DNA of 10,034 nucleotides from a virus: UHGV virus genome UHGV-0283685; one strand, 5' to 3'. The translations under genes and the position numbers were made by a program. Below the pieces are notes generated by a model. That model did not search any database and was not told where the DNA came from. It worked only from the letters and a program-made list of their open reading frames with translations. Of this stretch, positions 1-10,034 are shown piece by piece (positions within the stretch are counted from its first letter, which is position 1; the number at the start of each line of letters is the position of its first letter).

Positions 1-144
1 GCGATATTCTGCCTGGGTGTGTTCACGCGCAATGAAGAACGTACAACCGGCTATCGCACCGTAAGCCCAGTTTCCGGTAGAAAGGCCAACCAGTATCTGC
101 GCAATAACCGCGCATACTGCATGTGTTATTGGTGTTGTATCCAT
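1..144 (-). CDS. Hypothetical membrane protein, N-terminal 48 codons only (runs off the window)
   Basis: ATG at 142-144 (minus) preceded by AAGGAT about 6 nt upstream, 36 nt downstream of the tailspike stop. Translation MDTTPITHAVCAVIAQILVGLSTGNWAYGAIAGCTFFIAREHTQAEYR is open to the window edge and strongly hydrophobic (likely a TM helix). No family recognised. Confidence 0.4.
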   Translation of the reverse strand, partial: MDTTPITHAVCAVIAQILVGLSTGNWAYGAIAGCTFFIAREHTQAEYR

Positions 145-180
145 ATTTTTATCCTTTTTTAATTTAGCAAATTGATACAA

Positions 181-2832
181 TTACACTCCTGATACTTCAA
201 TAGATAGTTGAATCTTATTTGGCATCTTGTTGCTTAAATATATGGTTGCAAAGTCAAACGAAATATTTAAGTTATTTTCATCACCATCATTATCTGAAAG
301 AACTCCGGTTTTCAATACAACATTTTGCTTATTAATTTCTTTTAAAGGAGAAAAATCAATTGCCTCACCACGATGAATAAGAACACCAACTGCAACTACC
401 CCATGAATATCAAGTATGTCGTGCATATCAAGGCGAACACATGGGACGTATCCACCAACAAGGATACTTGTAGATTTGTTGGCTTCAAGTGTTATTAGAT
501 ATTTTCCGTCTGGTTGAACTATTGTTCCTGCTATTCCATCTGGCGTGTTGAACATACCGCAGTATCTGTATCCTGCTCCAACAGGAACAATTCTGTTACC
601 GCCAAGATCATGGAAATTTCGAACAATTATTGCACCAGGAACTGATGAATAAACCATTACTGCCTCTGTTTGCCCTGATACAGAGTCTGATGTTTCTGGG
701 TTCGCCATGCATAAATTACCACCAAAATAAATATTTTGGATTAGAGGGGTGAGGCCATCATTAACCTCAAAACGTAAAAAGCCCTTGAGAACAGTCCTTG
801 CGGTATTATTCTTAATAACAACAGGAAGTTCTTTATAGTAAGAGTTTCTGTCTGTCTGTGCCAGAGTTGTTTCAATAAAAACAAAAGGTCTGTGATTACG
901 TTGAGTTGCATTCACAGGTTTGTACCTCAAGTTGTATGGCAAAGACATCTCAGTAAAACCATCAATATAATTACAGTTCTGAATCGTGAACCCACCACCA
1001 CTATATCTTACAAAAAAAGGAGCCGGTCCGCTAAATCCCCTGGCGTTCATTCCATCATACACTTCATTTAATCCGCGTATTACACCAGCATAATACAAAT
1101 TGACTGAATTGCCGCCTGTAAAAGTTGTTTCGTATGATGGGCCGTGTCCACCGCAACATGAATTTCTTGTATCGCCATCAGGGAAAAATTTAACTCCATC
1201 ATATGCAGTTCCACCACCCATCATCGTTGGATTTATAATGTTATTATACAGTGATACCATTTGAGTCCCGCTTACATCAAGCCCCCTCCTGCAAGCAAAT
1301 GCTATCATATCCACGACTGTGCAATAGCTGCTATTGTATATTTCAACACCATAACCAGTGCCGTTTGTTAAATCATATGCACGGTTTGAGTATTCAATAT
1401 ATGGCTCTATTATTTTCGTTCTGTAGCATGACTCAAGAAAAATTCCAGTTTCTGAAAAGCCGATTAGTTTTATTCCTTCTATATGCATATCAACAGCGCC
1501 ATCTATCACAAGACCACGGAACCCCAAATCACCAGGAGATGCGTTCTGCGTGACAGGTCTTTCAAAATTGAAATCACCGACAATTCTGCCGTAGCATGGT
1601 TTTCTTTTATATATATTTGCCTTTCTTGTGATTTTAAACACGTCTCCAACAGATGGTTTAAACGGGAATGGTCCCTGAGCATATTCAAATTTTGCTGTTT
1701 TAGTGTCGTAATCCCAATGAGTTATGTATCTTGATATTCCGGCGTTAGCTCCGGTGACACCTGTTACTTTTACCTGATTGTATTGTTTTGTTAATGTTGC
1801 ATCATTACCAAATGAGAATTCACCTCCGGATACAGATGCTGTTACGGTCGTTGAGTAATCATTGCTCGCAGAGTAGAAAAAATAAAATGCACCTGATATC
1901 TCCGCTTTTTTTGTTGCATTATCAAAAGCAGTAACAACATGCATTTCACCTTCACAAGCCTGTCCTCTATTATCTGTCTGAATTAAGCGATTGCCATGAA
2001 TCATAATTATATCGCCTGCATCAACAGAATATGCTGAGTTAATTGATATTGATGTGTCACCAGGATTTATTGTTGAATTATAGTCAATTGGCGTGGCATC
2101 TCCACCTTCGAGTCTTATGAAATAATCATCAATCCAGTTTGGACCAAGAGGCTCTTTTGCGGTTGACTTTAAGACAACCTTGCCATCAGCTACCCAGTCA
2201 TAGTTATAATTATCCCCGCCGCATTTTATGCGGCTAATCAAATACACACCAGAATCCCACTTCAGGCGTTTTCTGTTAGATGCGCAGTAAATGATGGCAT
2301 TTGTTATTGCGTATGTATCGTCAGTAATGCCATCCCCTTTTGCACCAAAATCGCGAACATTTACATGGTCATCAAGTTTATCCTGTAGCGTCCTTTGTGT
2401 TGCTCCGTCTACTTCTTCTGGAAGACCGTACTTATAATTTATAATTGATGGAGTTGAACCATTGTTAAACTTATTCTCTAGTTCTTGTTTAAACTGATCA
2501 GGATCATATTTCAGAATGTTTGGAAAATAGAACTGCTGCGCCCCATAAGCATCGTAAACAGCCATAGAATGGCCTTGCACGGTTACGAATTTGGCAATCT
2601 GTCCGTTATATACCGGATATCCAGCAGCGTTAATGATGATTGGTTGCGAAACAGGAACGTGAGAACCGTCTTCGTTCTCCACATAAACCTGAATCTGGTT
2701 TTCAGGATTTACCGGGTCAGTGTCAATTTTTCCGATATAAATTTTGCCATTGGCTACGGCTTTAAAAGAACGAGCCATAGTGAAGAGTTGCGAAGGCATC
2801 GATACGATCACATTGGCTGTAATGTCTGTCAT
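181..2832 (-). CDS. Tailspike protein: P22 gp9-like N-terminal head-binding domain fused to a long, different receptor-binding region (883 aa)
   Basis: N-terminus [11 protein letters not shown]...[37 protein letters not shown]...[15 protein letters not shown]...LKYDPDQ closely matches the recalled P22 tailspike N-terminal domain; the remaining ~770 aa does not resemble P22 gp9. ATG at 2830-2832 with GGAG 8 nt upstream; stop TAA at 181-183. Confidence 0.9.
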
Positions 2833-2964
2833 TTAATTTGCTCCAGATACAAGGAATCACCGAAGCATGGCTACGGTTGATGTTTGTTGCATACCGAAAT
2901 GGTACGATTGTTGATTTGTACAGTAGGTTTTACGATGCCATTCCACCCATTTGGTGAGGCATTG

Positions 2965-3222
2965 ATGATGTACAGCAAATACGATGAGGCGCAGTTCCAC
3001 TTGAGGCTTACGCACGAGTTGCACGCTAAGATTAAGCAGCGTGCAAAAATGAATAACAGGTCTATCAATTCCGAAATTGTGGCTACGATGGAAGAATCAC
3101 TCTCCAAACCATCACCTGTAAGCGGGTATCGTGATGAAGAAGAGAGGTTGGCCTCATTAATCTCGGAGCGAGTAAAAGAAGTTGCGGCTGATATCCTTAG
3201 AAAAGAAAAAACCCGCGATTAA
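2965..3222 (+). CDS. mnt: Mnt-like ribbon-helix-helix repressor, second paralog (85 aa)
   Basis: FHLRLTHELHAKIKQRAKMNNRSINSEIVATMEESLSKPSPVSGYRDEEERLA aligns along most of its length with recalled P22 Mnt (…NGRSMNSELLQIVQDALSKPSPVTGYRNDAERLA…). Start moved from the track's TTG at 2884 to ATG 2965, which has GGTGAGG 5 nt upstream and gives an N-terminus of Mnt-like length. Stop TAA 3220-3222. Confidence 0.75.
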   Translation: MMYSKYDEAQFHLRLTHELHAKIKQRAKMNNRSINSEIVATMEESLSKPSPVSGYRDEEERLASLISERVKEVAADILRKEKTRD

Positions 3223-3230
3223 GCGGGTTT
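3211..3230. terminator. Bidirectional intrinsic terminator between convergent genes
   Basis: GC stem CCCGC (3212-3216) / GCGGG (3223-3227) with loop GATTAA, flanked by AAAAGAAAAA upstream and TTT downstream. The U-tract is stronger for minus-strand transcripts. Sits between the Mnt-like stop (3222) and the 73-aa ORF stop (3237). Confidence 0.6.
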
Positions 3231-3236
3231 AGTTGG

Positions 3237-3458
3237 TTAGTTATCAAAAAGTCCGTACGTTTCTTCTTCTTCAGGTGTAAGGGGAAGAATCTCTACTCTA
3301 TCTATAGATATCTTTTCAATGTACCCATGAGGTCTACTTAAAATTAAAGCTCTCTCATGCCACAGAACTCCAAGAATGTGATACCTTCCAGCATCGCCTT
3401 TTACCCTGGCTCTTCCTTTGATTCTTGGCGGCATAATGCCATATTTTTTCTTTGCCAT
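3237..3458 (-). CDS. Hypothetical basic protein (73 aa), translationally coupled to the upstream gene
   Basis: ATG at 3456-3458 overlaps the upstream stop as TAATG. N-terminus is Lys/Arg-rich (MAKKKYGIMPPRIKGRARVKG). No own SD within normal spacing. No family recognised. Confidence 0.5.
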   Translation of the reverse strand: MAKKKYGIMPPRIKGRARVKGDAGRYHILGVLWHERALILSRPHGYIEKISIDRVEILPLTPEEEETYGLFDN

Positions 3459-4186
3459 TATGCAACATTACTCCCATGAATCAGGTGTTGTAGTGCTTTA
3501 ACACCTTCCTCATTGTAGCGGAATGCTTCCACCTGTTTGCTGGAATGCGCAGATTTATCCAGGAAGAACTTCCCGTACTGCTCAGTTTTGAGGTTGTTTG
3601 CGTTAGCAATGCGACCAATCTTGTTGGCCGTTACTCCAAGCTGCTCTGCAACCTCCCCTGCTGAGTAGTAATGCTCTTCTATTGCTGGAAGAGGTATTGC
3701 ATTAAAACCAACGATCGGGTTGATTATGCTTGCTGCCGCAGTCTGCTTTGCTTCCGGCGCAAGATTTGGCATCAAATCGAACAGATTGGTAACAGCTTCA
3801 ACCGTCATTTTCAATGTTCGCGCCTGGCGATACTCAACAAGTCCACTAGACGATTTACCGCTTTTAATGTGCGCTTCTTGCATACTTTCAAGTTGGTCTA
3901 CAAGTGAGCGGCGAACAGCTTTAGATTCACGAGCAGCCACTCGAAGGGCTTGCTTAATTGACATAACAACTTTTTCAGAAGTTGTCTTGTTTGATTTTTG
4001 AACTACGAAAATTTCGTAGTGCTCACCTTCAAGTTCATCCTTAATGCGTGCAATAAAGTCGTTATTGCGGACTTCTTTTTCCCCGCACTGTCTACGAGCA
4101 TGATTGACCATCTCTAACAGGTACTGGCTATCAATGGTTTTATCCGTGACAACGGATCCGATGTTTGCTACATTCTTAAAAGTCAT
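3458..4186 (-). CDS. Phage antirepressor/regulatory-like protein with C-terminal KilA-C/ORF6C-type HTH-like segment (243 aa)
   Basis: C-terminal YSAGEVAEQLGVTANKIGRIANANNLKTEQYGKFFLDKS...GVKAL has the look of the DNA-binding C-terminal domain of phage antirepressors. Start set at ATG 4184-4186 (AAGGAA 6 nt upstream) rather than the track's GTG at 4237, which lies inside a terminator hairpin. Confidence 0.65.
   Translation of the reverse strand: MTFKNVANIGSVVTDKTIDSQYLLEMVNHARRQCGEKEVRNNDFIARIKDELEGEHYEIFVVQKSNKTTSEKVVMSIKQALRVAARESKAVRRSLVDQLESMQEAHIKSGKSSSGLVEYRQARTLKMTVEAVTNLFDLMPNLAPEAKQTAAASIINPIVGFNAIPLPAIEEHYYSAGEVAEQLGVTANKIGRIANANNLKTEQYGKFFLDKSAHSSKQVEAFRYNEEGVKALQHLIHGSNVA
4146..4174 (+). 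promoter_or_regulatory. Candidate antisense promoter (sar-like copy 2)
   Basis: -35 GTGACA (4146-4151), 17-bp spacer, extended -10 TGcTACATT (4166-4174), located just inside the start of the minus-strand gene at 4186. The motif TTTGCTACATT nearly matches TTTGCTACAAT at 4885-4895. Confidence 0.35.
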
Positions 4187-4255
4187 TAGGCATTCCTTAT
4201 GTGGTAGTAAGGGTGTGACATAGGCCGCCAGCAGCACACTGGCGGTTTTCTTTTT
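4181..4255 (+). ncRNA. Candidate sar-like antisense RNA 2 (about 75 nt), complementary to the RBS and start codon of the antirepressor-like gene at 3458-4186
   Basis: Predicted start about 7 nt after the -10. Ends at a strong plus-strand intrinsic terminator: stem 4224-4231 / 4239-4245 (7 bp), loop CAGCACA, then TTTTCTTTTT (4246-4255). On the minus strand the same hairpin lacks a U-tract. Confidence 0.35.
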
Positions 4256-4274
4256 GCGCCGTCCGGCGCACCAA

Positions 4275-4901
4275 TCAATGAATCCATTCCTCGCCGCGCA
4301 GTTTTGCCAGCATTGGCTGAGCGTTCTTTACGACAAAATTGTTGGTATCAAGATTCTTCATTTCACGAAGAAGTGATTTCTTGGTTTCTTCTGACATGTA
4401 GCGAGTCTCATATGCAATATCGTAAATCCTTCCTGAAAGCTCAGAACCAATTTGCTTCATTCCTGGGTAGATGTGTTTGCACATTTGTTGACTCTTCTCC
4501 ATCCACAATTGTAAGTAGCAGAGATTAACCAGTTCTTCGTCAGTAAACTGTTTTGCAATCGGTGAGCATTCTGCCTGCCGATCCAAAATATCCAGCACCC
4601 AGCGGCGGAACTCTTTGGCTACCTGAGTGCGAGCAAACATCGCGATTAGGTGGGCACCGCGTAGTGAGAAAACACGCACTTTTTTACGATAATTTCCTGA
4701 GGTACTCACTTCGAGTACCTGAGTCATTCCGGCGCTAAACTCATCGCTATACTTGTTATAAATCATTGTTACTGCACGACTATTTGCGTATTTAAGTGCA
4801 GATGCAATATTAGATGATGTAAACCAAACACCATGCATATCACGGGTGGGCACCAATTCAACTCCGTGGAAGTTGTAATCTGATTTTGCTACAATATTCA
4901 T
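4275..4901 (-). CDS. ant: Antirepressor with Bro-N domain (Ant-like, 208 aa)
   Basis: YNFHGVELVPTRDMHGVWFTSSNIASALKYANSRA...LIAMFARTQVAKEFRRWVLDIL fits the Bro-N fold pattern. It sits directly downstream of arc, as ant does in P22. Start set at ATG 4899-4901 (AAGGAA 6 nt upstream) rather than the track's 4985, which overlaps arc. Confidence 0.75.
   Translation of the reverse strand: MNIVAKSDYNFHGVELVPTRDMHGVWFTSSNIASALKYANSRAVTMIYNKYSDEFSAGMTQVLEVSTSGNYRKKVRVFSLRGAHLIAMFARTQVAKEFRRWVLDILDRQAECSPIAKQFTDEELVNLCYLQLWMEKSQQMCKHIYPGMKQIGSELSGRIYDIAYETRYMSEETKKSLLREMKNLDTNNFVVKNAQPMLAKLRGEEWIH
4887..4895 (+). promoter_or_regulatory. Candidate Psar-like antisense promoter (extended -10)
   Basis: TGcTACAAT (4887-4895) on the plus strand, immediately next to the ant start codon (4899-4901). 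No convincing -35. Confidence 0.35.
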
Positions 4902-4976
4902 GTTAGTTTCCTTGCATACGGTTACTGACATAGAGGCCCGGTTTGTGTTCACGCACTGCCGGGCTTCACTATTTTT
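4902..4976 (+). ncRNA. sar: Candidate Sar-like antisense RNA (about 75 nt), complementary to the ant RBS and the arc-ant intercistronic region
   Basis: Position and orientation match what is known for P22 sar (a small antisense RNA of about 68-69 nt from the arc-ant intercistronic region). Plus-strand hairpin GGCCCGG (4935-4941) / CCGGGC (4959-4964) followed by TTCACTATTTTT (4965-4976). Confidence 0.4.
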
Positions 4977-5148
4977 ACTGGGCATTAGCTCTTTCCTCTC
5001 TCAGGCTTTTAGCCAGTCGCTGCACAATCGCAGAGTTGATAGAAATTCCATCCATTTCAGCAACACGTCTAATCTCCTCCTTCATTCGCGCTGGCAAACG
5101 AAGCTGGAAACTTTGACTTTTACGACCTGTGTAAAGCACATCTTTCAT
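4975..5148 (-). CDS. arc: Arc-like ribbon-helix-helix repressor (57 aa)
   Basis: SFQLRLPARMKEEIRRVAEMDGISINSAIVQRLAKSLREE aligns with recalled P22 Arc (QFNLRWPREVLDLVRKVAEENGRSVNSEIYQRVMESFKKE). Start set at ATG 5146-5148 (GGGAGAA about 6 nt upstream) rather than the track's GTG at 5161-5163. Stop TAA 4975-4977. Confidence 0.8.
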   Translation of the reverse strand: MKDVLYTGRKSQSFQLRLPARMKEEIRRVAEMDGISINSAIVQRLAKSLREERANAQ

Positions 5149-5169
5149 AAGTAATTCTCCCACAATGAT

Positions 5170-5223
5170 ACCAACTTGGTTCTAGAACCAATTTAACACC
5201 ATTTATTTTGATGTCAAGTTGGT
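5170..5223. promoter_or_regulatory. Operator cluster: 16-bp perfect palindrome TTGGTTCTAGAACCAA plus extra TTGGT/ACCAA half-sites
   Basis: Perfect palindrome at 5176-5191. Overlapping palindrome ACCAAcTTGGT at 5170-5180. A further caagTTGGT at 5215-5223 overlaps the -35. All lie between the divergent arc (-) and Mnt-like (+) starts. Confidence 0.55.
5190..5217 (-). promoter_or_regulatory. Candidate Pant-like promoter for arc-ant
   Basis: On the minus strand: perfect -35 TTGACA (plus 5212-5217), 16-bp spacer, -10 TAAATT (plus 5190-5195). Predicted start falls inside the 16-bp palindrome. Confidence 0.5.
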
Positions 5224-5259
5224 GCTATTGTTTAGCGAACATCTTTACGTTGAGGTCAT

Positions 5260-5580
5260 ATGAGCAAGTTCCCTAGTCATGAAATGGATAGGTTCAATAT
5301 CAGGCTTCCTGCAGGAATGCGGGATGCTATAGCTGAACGAGCCAAACGTAACGGCAGATCAATGAACTCAGAGATTGTTCAGATACTGGAAGATGCCTTG
5401 AATGCAGAAAATACACTCGGGGAAATAGCAGATAAAATCAACAGCGTCTCGGTTCCGCTAAATGTTGATGCGCTAGTTCAACTTCAAGCCCAGGTTATCG
5501 CCATGCAAAAAGAAATACAGGAAAAGTTCAGAGAGCAGAACGAAAAGTTGAGAGAACTGCTAAACAAAAAAACCACCTGA
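5260..5580 (+). CDS. mnt: Mnt-like ribbon-helix-helix repressor with C-terminal coiled-coil, divergent from arc (106 aa)
   Basis: RFNIRLPAGMRDAIAERAKRNGRSMNSEIVQILEDAL closely matches the recalled P22 Mnt RHH region (RAEANGRSMNSELLQIVQDAL), and the C-terminus ends KKTT as Mnt does. The C-terminal half is heptad-like (LVQLQAQVIAMQKEIQEKFREQNEKLRELL). ATG 5260 with GAGG 4 nt upstream. Occupies the mnt position opposite arc. Confidence 0.8.
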   Translation: MSKFPSHEMDRFNIRLPAGMRDAIAERAKRNGRSMNSEIVQILEDALNAENTLGEIADKINSVSVPLNVDALVQLQAQVIAMQKEIQEKFREQNEKLRELLNKKTT

Positions 5581-5606
5581 CGGTGGGTTAATTTTTGCCT
5601 TTTTTG
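5572..5606 (+). terminator. Candidate intrinsic terminator after the Mnt-like gene
   Basis: Stem CCACC (5573-5577) / GGTGG (5582-5586), loop TGAC, followed by GTTAATTTTTGCCTTTTTT. The stem is short (5 bp), so this is only moderate. Confidence 0.45.
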
Positions 5607-5678
5607 GACCATATTGACTACTCATAAAATGAGATCAATATTTAATCGCCCAATAACGGGTGCATGTTGAGGTATATC

Positions 5679-5858
5679 ATGGCGAAAAAACCAGGTGAAA
5701 ACACAGGAAAAAACGGCGGAATATACCAAGAAGTTGGCCCGCGCGGAGGTAAGAAAGACAATTTTGCCACCGTCAAGGACAACGAAAGGCTTCCGCCAAC
5801 AACAAAGCCAGGTCATGGCTGGGTATTAGATAAGCGAACTCCAGACAGCAAAAAGTAA
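5679..5858 (+). CDS. Small hypothetical protein (59 aa), possibly YjzC-like
   Basis: ATG 5679 with GAGG 6 nt upstream (the track's 5664 start lacks an SD). MAKKPGENTGKNGGIYQEVGPRGGKKDNFATVKDNERLPPTTKPGHGWVLDKRTPDSKK is Gly/Lys/Pro-rich. The pattern KPGE..G.NGGIYQEVG...G...LPPT...G..W resembles the small YjzC-like proteins as I remember them. Candidate promoter upstream: TTGACT at 5614-5619. Confidence 0.55.
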   Translation: MAKKPGENTGKNGGIYQEVGPRGGKKDNFATVKDNERLPPTTKPGHGWVLDKRTPDSKK

Positions 5859-5864
5859 TAATCA

Positions 5865-5886
5865 AGCCGGGTCACTCCGGCTTTTT
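5865..5886. terminator. Bidirectional intrinsic terminator between convergent genes
   Basis: Stem GCCGG (5866-5870) / CCGGC (5877-5881), loop GTCACT, then TTTTT (5882-5886). An A-rich run on the other side (5851-5865) serves the minus strand. Overlaps the stop (5872-5874) of the 121-aa gene. Confidence 0.5.
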
Positions 5887-6237
5887 GATATGTCGCTCGC
5901 AGAACTCAACAAGCCTGCTCATTAAGTAGCAGTAAGTCTCGTTGGCTCTTCCTGGTTCAACATCAACGCCGACCCTTGAGCAGATATCGAATGCCATGTG
6001 AGCGCACTCATGGGCAATAGTAGATAGTTTACCATTGAACACACCTATCACATGCAAAACACCATTCTCGCTGCTCATTGTATGAGACGCTCCGTTGGCA
6101 TCCGAGTCCTGCACGTCCACGCCAAGTTTTTGATGCAGGCGTTGCCATTCTGGAAAGTCTCTGCAAAACACAATTGTACCGCTCTCAAAGAGCGGAACGA
6201 GCATTTTTGGTACGTTTCCAATGTTAACTTTTTTCAT
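5872..6237 (-). CDS. Hypothetical protein with HExxH zincin-like motif (121 aa), possibly a minimal metallopeptidase
   Basis: Uninterrupted 122-codon frame with ordinary coding composition. ATG 6235-6237 with AGGA 4 nt upstream. Contains STIAHECAHMAFDI, with several Glu residues 14-30 aa downstream that could supply a third zinc ligand. No family assignment possible without a search. Confidence 0.6.
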   Translation of the reverse strand: MKKVNIGNVPKMLVPLFESGTIVFCRDFPEWQRLHQKLGVDVQDSDANGASHTMSSENGVLHVIGVFNGKLSTIAHECAHMAFDICSRVGVDVEPGRANETYCYLMSRLVEFCERHIKKPE

Positions 6238-6267
6238 GGTATCCTGCTCAAAACTAAGGAGGTTGGT

Positions 6268-6495
6268 GTGAAGCGATGGTTCCTCATAATTACTGTTTTC
6301 GCGATCATTTACACTATTTTCCCTGCATTAAAAGCACCAATGCAAATAATTTCACTAGCAATAATTTCGATTAGTGCTTTCATTGCAGTAGCCGTACTTG
6401 TGTTTAAGGTTTTAAAGTTTTTAGTTTGGCTATCAAAAGATGATGGATGCAAAGTTCATCAAGAAAAAGAAGGCAAAATAACCAAAGTTGACTAA
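6268..6495 (+). CDS. Small hydrophobic protein with two predicted TM helices (75 aa), GTG start
   Basis: Strong SD AAGGAGG (6256-6262) 5 nt before GTG 6268. Two hydrophobic segments (WFLIITVFAIIYTIF and MQIISLAIISISAFIAVAVLVFKVLKFLVWL) then a charged tail. AT-rich. Its stop overlaps the gp16-like stop on the other strand by 3 nt. The track's N-terminal extension to 6052 is antisense to the 121-aa gene and was rejected. Confidence 0.5.
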   Translation: MKRWFLIITVFAIIYTIFPALKAPMQIISLAIISISAFIAVAVLVFKVLKFLVWLSKDDGCKVHQEKEGKITKVD

Positions 6496-8615
6496 CTGTC
6501 ACTAGCGAGCCATGTAATAATCCCCGTGCGGGCAATGGTTTTTGCTTCATCTGTTGATAAGGTTTTCTCCCATCTCTTAAATGCCCCAGATTGCATCAGT
6601 TTCCTTTCTATTGCGCGTCTCACTTCTGCTCTGTCTACTGGTGCGTTTTGCAGGCGAAATAGCATTGATTTAAACTCAGGAGAAGATAGCAGAGCATCAG
6701 CAGCCTTTATCCTGCTTGTTTTCCCTGACATCAATGCAGACGTTATCACCCCTGTTGCACCTACACCAGGGAGACCAGATAAGCTTGTAATACCTTCCGC
6801 CGCAGCAGCTTTTGAGGCTATTCCATAAATTTTTGCGAGACTACCCTTTTCTTTCAGAAAGTTATTAACTTGCTGATCCACAAGACTACTAGCATACTGC
6901 TTACCAGTATTGAGTCTATTCATAGCCTTAGCTGCTTGATAAATCGTATCAAGGCGCTTTGATGCATCTGTGCCAATAGCATCACGGAGAGCCTTCATAT
7001 TGGCCCCATTGCGTGACATTCCGTTATACCATTTTACAAATCCATCAACTCCTAATTGCTGACCAGGTGATTTGGCATAGCTGGTAAATGCTTTATTCAT
7101 TGAGGTGAGCGCAACTTCCTGCCGCATATCCTTTGGAATCGACTTCATTAATTGCCTAAAGTCGCCACCGTTTCCTTTTGCCATATTAACAACAGCACTT
7201 TCAACTTTTGGAATTGCTGATTGCTGAAGTTTTCTACCCAAGACGGTTACAGCATCATCTTCAATGGATTTTCGTTTTTTTACCAACTCCTTACCAAGCG
7301 TCCATAATTCCCCTGCGCCATATTTTTCTGCGACAGCCTGTTGGTCATCTGTTATGGCTGCATATAACTTTTTAAGAACACCTGTTTCTTCATCCTTGAA
7401 TGGACCAGAGCCTTTGCCAATAGCTTGTCCAACCTGCTTTCTAGCGAGATCTAAACGCCCATACGTTGGCAAGGTGTTTGGATCAAGTCGGTTCAATGTC
7501 CGCTTCATTATTGGAGATAATTCATCAATTCCACCTATGTCATCAGCAAAATCCTCTAAAAAATTCAATGTATTAGTTGCCTCAATCCGGTCTCTTACAG
7601 GAACCTTTTCGGCAATTTTGTTGTAGATGTTATCTGACTGATTTTGTAATGATGAAATGGTTTTATCAAAATTATCTGCAAGCCTGTCAGAAACCAGTTG
7701 CTTATCAAGGCTTCCCCCAAATGAAGTTATCATTTCATCAGCTTTTCTTCCTAATTCAGTAATAAAACGCTTATGCGCCTCACTAATCTCTGTTCCAGGG
7801 AGACTTGCCACTGCATTATCAAGAGCCCTGACAGCAGGATTATTAGAGATCATGCCTGGAGTGGCATAATTTTCCAGTTCTAGCTCACGAATAGCATTTA
7901 TCGCGTTAAAATCAGGATTAACTTCATCGGCGAAATCTTGAATAGCTCGTTGCCCGCCGATAAATTTATTGTCCATTGCGCCAGCAGCTTTCTTTAACGT
8001 TGCTTTAGATGATTTACTACCCATCCCTACGGATGAGCGATAAATATCTCCGGCACTATTTTTAATTTTTCCTGCAATCTTCCCAAGCGCTGGACCAACA
8101 ATCTCGGCTACAGGGCCAGCCACAGCGCCAATAGCAGCGCCGGAAGCAACATCGCTATTTGTTCCATTGGCTACAATAGCCCCTTCTCCAGCACCAAGCC
8201 CTGCGGCGGCAGCCAGCCTTGCCGCCCCTTTCGGAACCTGAGAAATAATCCCACCACCACTAACAAATGGCGCTGCTTGTCCAACGAACTCACCAACATC
8301 TTGTGCGGTTGATGGTTTTGCCGCTAACTTCTGCTGTAGAGACTGAATTGCGGCTTGCTCTTCTGGTGTCATGTCCTGAAACAGGCCAACACCTTTACCA
8401 ACATCCATCAATCCACTGAGAACGCCATACATAAAACGGTCGAAGCCGTTAGCATTATTAACAACATTTTCCTGTCTGGAATTTTCCTCTAGTGAAACCA
8501 AAGGAGATTGCTGCTGTTCTGGTTGTGCATCAAGCACAAAGCCATCAGGAAGCTGTGAGTTATCAGGCTGATTATCGAGAACAAATCCTTCGGGTAAACC
8601 TACATCGGTTGCCAT
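6492..8615 (-). CDS. DNA-ejection (injection) protein, P22 gp16-like (707 aa)
   Basis: Last of three consecutive late-operon genes just before the immI-like region, in the same order as P22 genes 7-20-16. ATG 8613-8615 with AGGAA 6 nt upstream, overlapping the upstream gene's stop by 16 nt. Gly/Ala-rich segments and an N-terminal tandem repeat. Assignment rests on synteny and size, not a verified alignment. Confidence 0.7.
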
Positions 8616-9943
8616 TGTCCGTTCCTATAAATGAGTTTCTGACCAGTTTTAGGGTTCGTTGCCGTCGCGCCTTCTGATATCCCACTTGGCGCAGCTTTTG
8701 TCTGCCCATTACCACCTTGTGGTGTAGGCTGCGCTGGGACATCGTCAAATAGCTTGGCCTTCCTTCTCCCTAAGCTTTTTTTCAGCCCTTGAGGAATAGT
8801 ATCTCCATACGTATCCAGATATTCGTCTACCTGCTGGTTAAACTGCTGCCCCATAGCGTTGGCGTTAATTTTGGCTGCGTTAACAATGTTATCCCTCGCT
8901 TCCTGTGACAAGCCATTCCCTGCATTAAGCTGGTCTACATATCCTTTTATCTGCCCCCATATGCCATCAGAGCGCATGACCTGAACCTGTTCACCTTCGC
9001 GAACAACTGACTGAGGGTCGAGAGACTTCATGTAATTAAAGATAATCCCAAGTTGGGCAGCGCCAGTATTTACCTTGCTAAGGGCTTGCAGAGAGTTTGC
9101 CGCCGCTCTGACAGAGTTATAATTTTTGCCAAAATTGGTAATATCAGAATTTAATCCCTTAATTAAGTCTGCTGACGGCTTACCTTTTTGCCCCAGCTCC
9201 ATTAGCTTCAATCCCATCTCATCTGAGTGCATTTGTGCCCGCTGAGCCCTGTCTAGTTGAGCATTTTGGATATTTGCCCATCCTCTCGCGTTCTCCATGT
9301 CAGCCTGACGGATGCTTTCATCCAATCGCCCTTTCTCAAGTTGGCGACCAACCATCTTATCCTGATAATCCAGCATTTTATCCGGACCAACAGCCCCTAG
9401 CGTCATAGTAGTCAGCATGTGTGATAGCTGCTCTGGATTCTGAATACCTGTCTGAATCATCCAGTCAGCATTAGCACCAACGCGATTTAACCTGTCCTTG
9501 TTGTCAGTAATGAATTTACTGTAGGCTTCCGGCCCCTGAGAAAGAGCGACGTTAGCCCTCATGGCTAAATCGCCCATATCGTTGCGTTGCTGATCATTAA
9601 GACCGGAAAACGCCTGTTGTGCCTGTGCAACAAACGCTGGATTTTCCTGGGCAAACTTAAATAGTCCCGATGGATCACCAGAAGCCCATGCATCAGCGTG
9701 AACCTTATTGAACGCACTAATAGCTTTCTGTTGCTGTTCCTGATTGTAAATATCAGCAACTCCAGCCAGACCACGTAACGCGGTCAGACCAACGTTATTT
9801 GCACCTGAGCGAGCCAGTTCATTGTTTTCGCGGATCAGACCAAGCGTTGCGTTAATGTCGCTTGCCTTTGGCGCATTCTCATTTTGCGCACCAATGCCAG
9901 CCAGAAAACCACCAGAATTAATACCCTGTTGCCACGTAGCCAT
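8600..9943 (-). CDS. DNA-ejection protein, P22 gp20-like (447 aa)
   Basis: Middle gene of the three-gene set (P22 gp20 is about 471 aa). Start set at ATG 9941-9943, 4 nt after the upstream gene's TAA, rather than the track's GTG at 9955, which lies inside the upstream gene. Gln/Asn/Ala-rich. Assignment by synteny and size. Confidence 0.7.
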
Positions 9944-9947
9944 TGAT

Positions 9948-10034
9948 TTACCCACGTCCAGTTAAAGTGTAAGCCAGCGCCTTATCCATTAATCCCCGAG
10001 CAATTTCGTGGATCGTTGGCGCAACTCCTACCTC
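9948..10034 (-). CDS. C-terminal fragment of the upstream late gene (gp7-like position), 28 codons plus stop
   Basis: Minus-strand frame is open from the window edge to TAA at 9948-9950 (…[28 protein letters not shown]), immediately followed by the gp20-like start. Identity inferred from position only. Confidence 0.4.

What the first reader, a model, noticed from the sequence alone, without database searches (positions are those of the whole stretch)
181..2832. Mosaic tailspike: conserved P22-type head-binding domain joined to a long, AT-rich receptor-binding region
Only the first ~110 residues (nt about 2500-2832) resemble P22 gp9. The remaining ~770 residues are unrelated by eye, and the DNA encoding them looks noticeably more AT-rich than the N-terminal module or the ejection genes. 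This is the usual signature of tailspike module exchange and implies a receptor specificity different from P22. At 883 aa it is about 200 residues longer than P22 gp9, so there may be an extra C-terminal domain.
Basis: partly seen in the sequence, partly recalled or inferred. Interest (0 to 1): 0.5.

Follow-up and report, generated by a model that had tools for sequence, protein, structure and literature searches.

The report
Mosaic prophage tailspike, probable capsule depolymerase
This gene is a prophage tailspike in which the standard P22-type virion-attachment module is fused to a swapped-in, uncharacterised sugar-cutting module that, by its host distribution, most likely targets one particular E. 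coli capsule (probably K53) and not the O-antigen; the mosaic itself is ordinary.

Summary
ORF 181-2832 (-) encodes 883 aa. Residues 1-113 are a P22-type head-binding domain, and nothing downstream matches P22 gp9 by sequence. The rest of the gene is modestly more AT-rich (GC3 29% against 42%).

The gene sits in a P22-like prophage whose backbone is nearly identical to the E. coli 55989 prophage. A 2.46-kb cassette (receptor-binding module from about aa 157, plus a small downstream ORF) is 99.7% identical to one in epsilon15-like prophages, where it carries a different anchor.

[quoted passage not shown] It is a remote homologue of the Pseudomonas phage LKA1 gp49 O-polysaccharide lyase (hhalign 95.8%). 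The family's most conserved polar residues (R289, R515, H563) map onto gp49 active-site residues.

All 10 of 5426 complete E. coli genomes carrying it have at least four O types (O4, O6, O11, O51). Yet all share one rare group-2 capsule locus (40/5426 genomes; encodes glf, a UDP-sugar dehydrogenase and an acetyltransferase; probably K53). A homologue with 31% identity shows the same restriction (4/4).

Best reading: a capsule-specific depolymerase tailspike, probably a lyase. This is a new member of a known kind (precedent: CUS-3).

The parts
2494..2832 (-). Head-binding (virion anchor) domain, aa 1-113, P22 gp9 type
   Evidence: Pfam PF09008, E 2e-66, aa 1-113. Matches solved P22, Sf6 and CUS-3-type chains. 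80-95% nt identity to many Lederbergvirus tailspikes.
2593..2676 (-). Zone holding the most recent recombination crossover with the 55989-like backbone (gene nt ~157-240), inside the head-binding coding DNA
   Evidence: Against E. coli 55989 there is 1 mismatch in gene nt 1-239, 13 mismatches in nt 240-324, and no relation from nt 340. Upstream, positions 2833-9953 show only 5 mismatches.
2365..2493 (-). Linker/neck, aa 114-156. It travels with the receptor module in P22-type carriers but is replaced in epsilon15-type carriers.
   Evidence: 99.2% identical to HB37. Divergent from 1517k up to aa ~143-157. AF2 pLDDT is below 50 here. Weak similarity to the CBA120 TSP3 and Sf6 neck.
2101..2364 (-). 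N-terminal cap and first rungs of the right-handed beta-helix, aa 157-244 (motif [16 protein letters not shown]); 5' edge of the mobile cassette
   Evidence: Pfam PF12708, 31.5 bits, aa 157-187. Identity to 1517k starts here. hhalign to LKA1 gp49 residues 179-283.
1615..2100 (-). Insertion domain interrupting the beta-helix, aa ~245-406. The first half is homologous to the LKA1 gp49 beta-barrel insertion; the second ~70-100 aa have no counterpart in gp49. Holds the conserved R289 (nt 1966-1968).
   Evidence: hhalign alignment and its gap. hmmsearch stretch against 4ru4. Weak Pfam K1-lyase_Rider hits in the homologues P0010 and P0012. R289 is conserved in 104/107 family members.
565..1614 (-). 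Beta-helix core with the putative active site, aa 407-756: N483, Y494, R515 (nt 1288-1290), D519, H563 (nt 1144-1146), R586, Y622
184..564 (-). C-terminal beta-sandwich (jellyroll-like) domain, aa ~757-883
1..144 (-). 5' part (48 codons) of a 95-aa membrane-protein ORF that lies downstream of the tailspike and forms the 3' end of the mobile cassette
   Evidence: The full ORF is annotated in HB37 and 1517k. It matches PHROG 1443, function unknown. The segment shared by HB37 and 1517k is 2460 bp, equal to window -98..2361.

Best explanation
The gene encodes the tailspike of a P22-like (Lederbergvirus-type) prophage, assembled by homologous recombination. The conserved N-terminal head-binding domain (aa 1-113) docks the trimer on the tail. 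A mobile cassette supplies the linker, the receptor-binding/enzymatic module (aa ~157-883) and a small downstream ORF. [quoted passage not shown] It is a remote homologue of the Pseudomonas phage LKA1 gp49 O-polysaccharide lyase. I infer that it binds and depolymerises one acidic group-2 capsular polysaccharide of E. coli, which lets the virion bore through the capsule to the outer membrane. The locus for that capsule encodes Glf, a UDP-sugar dehydrogenase, an acetyltransferase and GT2 enzymes, and is probably K53. Cleavage is most likely by beta-elimination at a uronic acid. H563 and Y494 would act as base and acid, and R289, R515, R586 and N483 would neutralise the carboxylate. Shown here: the mosaic structure, the fold, the homology to gp49, the residue conservation and the host association. 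Inferred: capsule specificity, the K53 identity, the lyase chemistry and the trimeric state.
For: Mosaic. The 55989-like backbone is near-identical up to inside the head-binding DNA. The cassette is 99.4-99.7% identical behind two other anchors, one of them of Uetakevirus type.

Homology: hmmsearch against 4ru4 gives E 2.5e-4. hhalign of the family profile against gp49 gives probability 95.8%, E 8e-9, over 339 columns. R289, R515 and H563 align to gp49 Arg329, Arg459 and His499. The gp49 paper places all three in its putative (not mutationally tested) active site (PMC5701251). They are the most conserved polar residues among 136 family members.

Receptor: carriers are O11 (four genomes), O6, O51 and O4. 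All 10 carriers lie among the 40/5426 genomes that hold one kps region 2 (random expectation 1.4e-22). The 31%-identical homologue P0011 occurs in 4 genomes, and all 4 are among the same 40. Region 2 encodes GLF, a UDP-Glc/GDP-Man dehydrogenase family enzyme, a hexapeptide acyltransferase and GT2 enzymes, so a uronic acid is expected.

K type: supplementary tables of PMC13171598 type ST457 O11:H25, ST12 O4:H5 and ST127 O6:H31 isolates as K53. They list glf in only 3 K loci, and KL53, KL164 and KL93 cluster together in their locus tree.

Precedent: CUS-3, a Lederbergvirus with a K1 endosialidase tailspike on the same anchor.
Confidence: 0.6

Rival explanations
1. It is a classical O-antigen-specific endoglycosidase tailspike, like P22 gp9, HK620 or Sf6, for one E. 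coli O serogroup (for example O11). The capsule association is a by-product of lineage structure or of later O-antigen switching in the lysogens.
For: Most characterised Lederberg- and Uetakevirus tailspikes are O-antigen specific (PMC10408124). O11 is enriched among carriers (4/10 against 66/5426). The closest characterised homologue, LKA1 gp49, cleaves an O-antigen.
Against: Carriers include O4, O6 and O51 as well as O11. All 10 share the same rare kps region 2. So do 4/4 carriers of a divergent homologue. The carriers span two prophage types and at least three integration sites.
Confidence: 0.12
2. It is capsule-specific as proposed, but a glycoside hydrolase and not a lyase.
Against: The only sequence-detectable solved relative is a proven lyase. 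The conserved set is Arg/His/Tyr/Asn-rich with no conserved acidic pair. The predicted substrate contains a uronic acid. The RefSeq name probably rests only on the N-terminal cap motif PF12708.
Confidence: 0.22
3. It targets a polysaccharide common to all E. coli (colanic acid, enterobacterial common antigen or LPS core), which would explain its presence in several O serogroups.
For: The hosts span several serogroups. All hosts examined have wca (colanic acid) clusters. A PHROG annotated 'tail spike protein with colonic acid degradation activity' (sic; i.e. colanic acid) matches aa 1-199.
Against: A universal receptor does not predict restriction to 40/5426 genomes with one kps type. The PHROG match covers only the anchor, linker and cap, not the catalytic module.
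Confidence: 0.04

Closest known systems
Enterobacteria phage CUS-3 tailspike (K1 endosialidase on a P22-type head-binding domain; Lederbergvirus prophage of E. coli RS218)
   Same: It has the same anchor (94.7% nt identity over gene nt 1-341). It sits at the same genomic position, after the immI/antirepressor region. It follows the same logic of a temperate P22-like phage whose tailspike attacks a group-2 capsule, not an O-antigen.
   Different: The catalytic module is unrelated: an endosialidase beta-propeller for polysialic acid, against a beta-helix of the LKA1 gp49 type here. The predicted capsule is different.
Pseudomonas phage LKA1 gp49 / phi297 gp61 tailspikes (PDB 4RU4, 4RU5), O5 O-specific polysaccharide lyase
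   Same: The domain order is the same: a beta-helix interrupted by a beta-barrel insertion domain, then a C-terminal beta-sandwich. hhalign gives 95.8% probability over 339 columns. Equivalents of Arg329, Arg459, His499 and Tyr438-Gly439 are conserved.
   Different: Identity is about 22% at most, and gp49 Asp497 and His494 are not conserved. The insertion domain is about twice as long. The N-terminal anchor differs (T7-like particle-binding domain in gp49, P22 head-binding domain here), as do host and substrate.
P22 gp9, Sf6 gp14 and HK620 gp9 tailspikes (Lederbergvirus O-antigen endoglycosidases)
   Same: They share the head-binding domain, the gene position and the general beta-helix architecture. 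[quoted passage not shown]
   Different: There is no sequence similarity after aa ~124 (P22) or ~185 (Sf6). Foldseek ranks them well below the lyase-type spikes. The predicted receptor and chemistry differ.
Tailspikes of epsilon15 and phiv142-3 (Uetakevirus)
   Same: The identical receptor module (99.7% nt, 3 aa differences) is carried by Uetakevirus-type prophages in six E. coli genomes, as a 924-aa protein.
   Different: A different ~190-aa N-terminal anchor (95-96% identical to phiv142-3, 71% to epsilon15), and a different prophage backbone and integration site.
Klebsiella phage NTUH-K2044-K1-1 K1 lyase (PDB 7W1C) and K64-1 S2-4
   Different: No significant sequence similarity to the window protein itself; different substrate.

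Membership tests
P22-type (Lederbergvirus) tailspike architecture | N-terminal head-binding domain (Pfam PF09008) | tested here: met
   E 2e-66, aa 1-113, full-length match. Solved P22 and Sf6 anchors align.
P22-type (Lederbergvirus) tailspike architecture | Gene lies at the end of the late region, after the ejection-protein genes and the immI (ant/arc/mnt) region of a P22-like genome | tested here: met
   gp20-like, gp16-like, Arc/Mnt-like and two antirepressor genes lie upstream. The same order is annotated in the 55989 and HB37 prophages, together with the P22 capsid, gp4, gp10 and needle genes.
P22-type (Lederbergvirus) tailspike architecture | Receptor-binding part is a right-handed parallel beta-helix | tested here: met
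P22-type (Lederbergvirus) tailspike architecture | Homotrimer, six copies per virion | not testable with these tools
   Only a monomer was modelled.
P22 gp9 endorhamnosidase receptor-binding family | Sequence homology of the catalytic beta-helix to gp9, including its acidic catalytic residues | tested here: not met
   The phmmer alignment to gp9 chains ends at aa 124. No phage record matches beyond nt 341.
LKA1 gp49 / phi297 gp61-type polysaccharide lyase module | Detectable homology of the beta-helix and insertion domain | tested here: met
   hhalign probability 95.8%, E 8e-9, 339 columns. hmmsearch E 2.5e-4. Top Foldseek hit, E 9e-14.
LKA1 gp49 / phi297 gp61-type polysaccharide lyase module | Beta-barrel insertion domain contributing a conserved Arg (gp49 Arg329) to the groove, and an opposing Arg (Arg459) | tested here: met
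   R289 aligns to Arg329 and R515 to Arg459. They are conserved in 104/107 and 129/134 family members.
LKA1 gp49 / phi297 gp61-type polysaccharide lyase module | His494-Asp497-His499 cluster proposed as catalytic | tested here: inconclusive
   H563 aligns to His499 and is invariant (135/135). Asp497 and His494 align to G561 and S558. The alignment may be off by a few residues locally.
LKA1 gp49 / phi297 gp61-type polysaccharide lyase module | [quoted passage not shown] | tested here: met
LKA1 gp49 / phi297 gp61-type polysaccharide lyase module | Beta-elimination products (4,5-unsaturated uronate) | not testable with these tools
   Requires enzyme assays.
Glycoside hydrolase family 28 (the RefSeq name of the epsilon15-type version says 'GH28-related') | GH28 catalytic motifs (NTD, DD, GHG, RIK) with three catalytic Asp residues | tested here: not met
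   Only the N-terminal cap family PF12708 matches (aa 157-187). No Pfam GH28 model matches. Inspection of the conserved residues shows a GHG-like H563-G564 but no conserved DD pair.
Capsule (K-antigen)-specific phage depolymerases | Occurrence restricted to hosts with one capsule type, independent of O type | tested here: met
   10/10 carriers, and 4/4 carriers of a homologue, lie within the 40/5426 genomes with one kps region 2. The typed carriers are O4, O6, O11 and O51.
Capsule (K-antigen)-specific phage depolymerases | Demonstrated degradation of the capsule; halo formation | not testable with these tools
   Requires experiments.

The most novel reading that the evidence does not exclude
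This is the first identified depolymerase for the E. coli K53-type (GlcA/Galf, O-acetylated) group-2 capsule. It would represent a large, structurally unsolved family of LKA1-gp49-like lyase modules with a doubled insertion domain: at least 178 clusters at 50% identity in metagenomes, on at least four kinds of anchor. It would also show that some 'multi-serogroup' tailspikes of Lederberg- and Uetakevirus prophages are K-antigen specific and not O-antigen specific.
Probability: 0.45. Interest if true: 0.5.

Novelty: new member of a known kind. Interest (0 to 1): 0.4.

Why it matters
Mosaic tailspikes are textbook, so the finding as written is ordinary. What it adds is a specific, cheap-to-test prediction: a prophage-borne enzyme for a capsule type found in extraintestinal E. 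coli lineages (ST457 O11:H25, ST12 O4:H5, ST127 O6:H31). I know of no described depolymerase for this capsule, and no sequenced phage isolate in the collection searched carries this module.

Such enzymes are used as capsule-typing reagents and as anti-virulence or therapeutic agents, and they can retarget phages and tailocins. The result also cautions against assuming that tailspikes of P22-like and epsilon15-like prophages report the host's O serogroup. It further gives a conserved residue set (R289, Y494, R515, H563, R586) for mechanistic work on an unsolved enzyme family.

Tried and rejected
(1) O-antigen specificity. I located the O-antigen loci of four carriers and used the O11 wzx-wzy region as a query. 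The seven carriers typed are O11 (four), O6, O51 and O4, so a single O serogroup is rejected. At most one of the three untyped carriers (201609, KC-Dl-1, 2452) can be O11, because 65 of the 66 O11 genomes were listed and none of the three is among them.

(2) Isolated phages with this module. Megablast and tblastn against 50,697 phage records gave nothing beyond the anchor, linker and cap.

(3) A solved structure by sequence. phmmer and a family profile against PDB sequences hit only the anchor, the cap motif and, weakly, LKA1 gp49.

(4) An extra C-terminal domain as the source of the extra length. A C-terminal beta-sandwich exists, but relatives have one too; the excess is the insertion domain.

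(5) The CUS-3 'boundary sequence' bsq1 as the anchor/receptor-module junction. It is intergenic, upstream of the tailspike gene, so it is not relevant.

(6) A third family member (P0010) as a further test of the capsule association. It has no match in complete genomes.

(7) Confirming the K53/K93 chemical structure from the literature. The old papers are not held in full text. The GlcA-Galf repeat is therefore my recollection only.

(8) Matching to the K53 and K93 reference genomes of PMC13348134. By record length they are not among the hits, so the K type remains indirect.
Full report
**1. The observation**

The window holds an 883-codon ORF on the minus strand at 181-2832. Pfam Head_binding (PF09008) matches aa 1-113 end to end (E 2e-66). 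Against the sequences of solved structures, P22 gp9 aligns only to aa 1-124 and Sf6 gp14 to aa 1-185. CBA120 TSP3 aligns weakly to aa 114-198.

Against 50,697 phage records, megablast matches only gene nt 1-341 at 80-95% identity (CUS-3 94.7%, HK620, Sf6, epsilon34). tblastn with aa 115-883 gives only short or weak hits.

The compositional shift is real but modest:

| Segment | GC | GC3 |
|---|---|---|
| Head-binding part | 0.431 | 42.5% |
| Linker | 0.349 | 23.3% |
| Receptor-binding part | 0.389 | 29.0% |
| Linker + receptor-binding part (rest of gene) | 0.387 | 28.7% |
| Rest of window | 0.444 | n/a |
| Pooled: two antirepressor genes, gp16-like, gp20-like | n/a | 39.1% |

Fisher tests against the rest of the gene give p=0.004 for the head-binding part and p=7e-7 for the pooled genes.

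**2. Context**

The neighbours are gp20-like and gp16-like ejection proteins, Arc/Mnt-like regulators and two antirepressors. This is the immI/late end of a P22-like prophage. Window 2494-9953 is 99.8% identical to a prophage of E. coli 55989. No complete E. coli genome contains the whole window.

**3. Anatomy of the mosaic**

Against 55989, positions 2833-9953 differ at 5 sites. Within the gene there is 1 mismatch in nt 1-239 and 13 in nt 240-324. The sequences are unrelated from nt 340, directly after the KYDPDQ codons. The family-level junction is therefore at aa 113. The latest crossover in this lineage lies inside the conserved head-binding DNA, at gene nt ~157-240 (window ~2593-2676).

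The receptor part occurs at 99% nt identity or more in only 10 of 5426 complete E. coli genomes:

- Four carry it behind a P22-type anchor. HB37 has an intact 883-aa gene in a P22-like prophage at bioA/ybhB. YP3 and 266917_2 carry it too, and strain 2452 has a remnant next to thrW.
- Six carry it as a 924-aa protein behind a different ~190-aa N-terminus, in a prophage next to yfgI with holin, GH19 endolysin and DUF2514 genes downstream. That N-terminus is 95-96% identical to the Uetakevirus phiv142-3 spike and 71% to the epsilon15 tailspike.

Window against HB37: head-binding part 93.8%, linker 99.2%, receptor part 99.4%. Window against 1517k: 99.7% over the last 2184 nt, with 3 aa differences.

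The segment shared by the P22-type and epsilon15-type genes is 2460 bp, equal to window -98..2361. It runs from the cap motif [11 protein letters not shown] (aa ~157) through the intergenic spacer into a 95-aa membrane-protein ORF downstream.

The gene thus has three parts: anchor, linker and receptor module. The module is a cassette flanked by conserved sequence on both sides. Exchange of receptor modules between Lederberg- and Uetakevirus prophages is documented (PMC10408124).

**4. What the module is**

The family is small among named sequences. One cluster of 511 sequences holds the epsilon15-type version. Relatives at 65-74% identity include one named from Citrobacter portucalensis (the rest are unnamed), and there is a Plesiomonas relative at 49%. 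More distant relatives reach down to 26%.

A profile search of 1.84 billion cluster representatives finds 178 clusters at E<=1e-30. About 100 cover the whole 727-position module, behind N-terminal parts of 14 to about 1000 aa. Anchors seen on relatives include the P22 head-binding domain, the T7 tail-fibre N-terminal domain and the TSP1/Gp66 N-terminal domain. PHROGs v4 already holds the family as phrog_14558, 'tail spike protein'.

An AlphaFold2 model (pLDDT 80.4, mostly above 85 from aa 157) shows a beta-helix, a beta-rich insertion and a C-terminal beta-sandwich.

- Foldseek ranks LKA1 gp49 and phi297 gp61 first, then K1-specific depolymerases and AP22 gp54. P22, Sf6 and HK620 rank far lower.
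- By sequence, the family profile hits only LKA1 gp49 among solved catalytic modules (E 2.5e-4, two collinear stretches).
- hhalign against gp49 gives probability 95.8%, E 8e-9, over 339 columns (module positions 5-469 to gp49 179-555).

The gp49 paper defines a beta-helix (181-283 and 371-675), a beta-barrel insertion (284-370) and a C-terminal jellyroll (676-769). It proves beta-elimination and describes a putative active site built from Arg329, Arg459, His494, Asp497 and His499 (PMC5701251).

In the alignment, R289 matches Arg329, R515 matches Arg459, H563 matches His499, and Y494-G495 match Tyr438-Gly439. Asp497 and His494 fall on G561 and S558.

Across 136 family members the most conserved polar residues are:

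| Residue | Conserved in |
|---|---|
| H563 | 135/135 |
| R515 | 129/134 |
| R289 | 104/107 |
| R586 | 127/135 |
| Y494 | 123/134 |
| N483 | 116/130 |
| D519 | 113/134 |

An Arg/His/Tyr/Asn set with no conserved acidic pair fits uronate-acting lyases and epimerases better than hydrolases. This is an inference.

The insertion domain here spans aa ~245-406 against 87 aa in gp49, and about 70-100 residues have no counterpart. This accounts for most of the ~216-aa excess over P22 gp9.

**5. Which receptor**

RefSeq (PGAP) names the wzx and wzy genes of each carrier by O type:

| Carrier | O type |
|---|---|
| 1517k, KOr019, FDAARGOS_1268, 7CC | O11 (66/5426 genomes overall) |
| HB37 | O6 |
| 266917_2 | O51 |
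| YP3 | O4 |

One O-antigen cannot be the receptor.

YP3 carries a group-2 kps locus. Its serotype-specific region 2 encodes UDP-galactopyranose mutase, a UDP-glucose/GDP-mannose dehydrogenase family enzyme, a hexapeptide acyltransferase, two GT2 proteins and two proteins with no Pfam family.

That 10.2-kb region occurs at 80% coverage or more in only 40 of 5426 genomes, and all ten carriers are among them. Nine match at 100% coverage and 99.9% identity; 266917_2 has a variant at 91% coverage and 99.1% identity. The probability of this under random placement is 1.4e-22, which ignores relatedness between genomes.

As an independent test I took P0011, a homologue whose receptor module is 31% identical and which has a P22-type anchor. 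It occurs in four complete genomes (LH10-b-1, ECCWS199, XH992, LS45). All four are among the same 40.

The carriers span four O types, two prophage genera and at least three integration sites. Simple clonal hitch-hiking is therefore unlikely, although MLST was not done.

None of the 70 genomes with only a partial match (26% coverage, about 94% identity; perhaps a sister K locus) carries either module.

**6. Which capsule**

Supplementary tables of the E. coli K-locus typing paper assign K53 to ST457 O11:H25, ST12 O4:H5 and ST127 O6:H31 isolates. They list glf in only three K loci and place KL53, KL164 and KL93 together in the locus tree (PMC13171598). This matches the carriers' O types and the gene content, so KL53 (K53), with a KL164-like variant, is the likely type.

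From memory only, K53 and K93 are O-acetylated GlcA-Galf disaccharide polymers with 4-substituted GlcA, which would be a lyase substrate. I could not verify this in the library.

**7. Mechanism and comparison**

The best-supported picture is a trimeric tailspike anchored by the P22-type domain. Its cassette-borne module recognises and depolymerises a K53-type capsule, probably by beta-elimination.

The closest functional precedent is CUS-3, a Lederbergvirus prophage whose spike carries a K1 endosialidase on the same anchor. The closest structural and sequence relative is LKA1 gp49.

It is a member of the P22-type tailspike architecture but not of the gp9 endorhamnosidase family. It is a remote member of the gp49-like module family with a partly conserved active site.

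**8. Verdict**

The added value is the second junction, the shuttling between phage genera, the homology to a lyase with a defined conserved residue set, and a strong host association pointing to a specific capsule and not to an O-antigen. This is a new member of a known kind, of moderate interest.

Noticed in passing
window 1-144 (-), full ORF in L003:11857-12144 and L001:7860-8144: A 95-aa predicted membrane protein (PHROG 1443, function unknown) lies just downstream of the tailspike and travels with the receptor module between P22-like and epsilon15-like prophages. Related copies (~86% nt) lie next to tailspike genes in about 1800 E. coli genomes, so it may be the 3' recombination anchor of tailspike cassettes.
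   Followed up: partly
L008:18312-19546 (strain 1517k) and L009:45290-46544 (strain HB37): The O-antigen flippase gene wzx is annotated as frameshifted in two unrelated carriers (O11 and O6). This could be assembly error, or loss of O-antigen in encapsulated lysogens.
   Followed up: no
L018:1501-4104 (P0011): A second tailspike module of the same family, only 31% identical, is also confined to genomes with the same capsule locus (4/4). Two very divergent enzymes therefore appear to target one capsule, or its acetylation variants.
   Followed up: partly
rows H291-H310: Seventy genomes match only the last 26% of the kps region 2 (dehydrogenase plus GT2) at about 94% identity. This is probably a sister K locus (K93?). 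None of them carries either tailspike module.
   Followed up: no
window 6492-8615 (-): The gp16-like ejection protein is 707 aa and matches its own PHROG (6704, function unknown) end to end. It matches the usual 'DNA transfer protein' family only weakly. The DNA at 7950-8400 is a GC-rich patch (0.51-0.54) in a window that averages 0.43.
   Followed up: no
window 3237-5580: The immI region holds two different antirepressor genes (236 aa Ant-like and 259 aa, PHROG 1726) plus at least two Arc/Mnt-like genes on opposite strands. This is more elaborate than P22's single ant.
   Followed up: no
NZ_CP054388.1 (strain 1517k): The ppx-yfgI region that carries the epsilon15-like prophage sits at 0.6 Mb in inverted orientation relative to the K-12 order of the neighbouring regions. 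This suggests a large chromosomal rearrangement in that strain.
   Followed up: no
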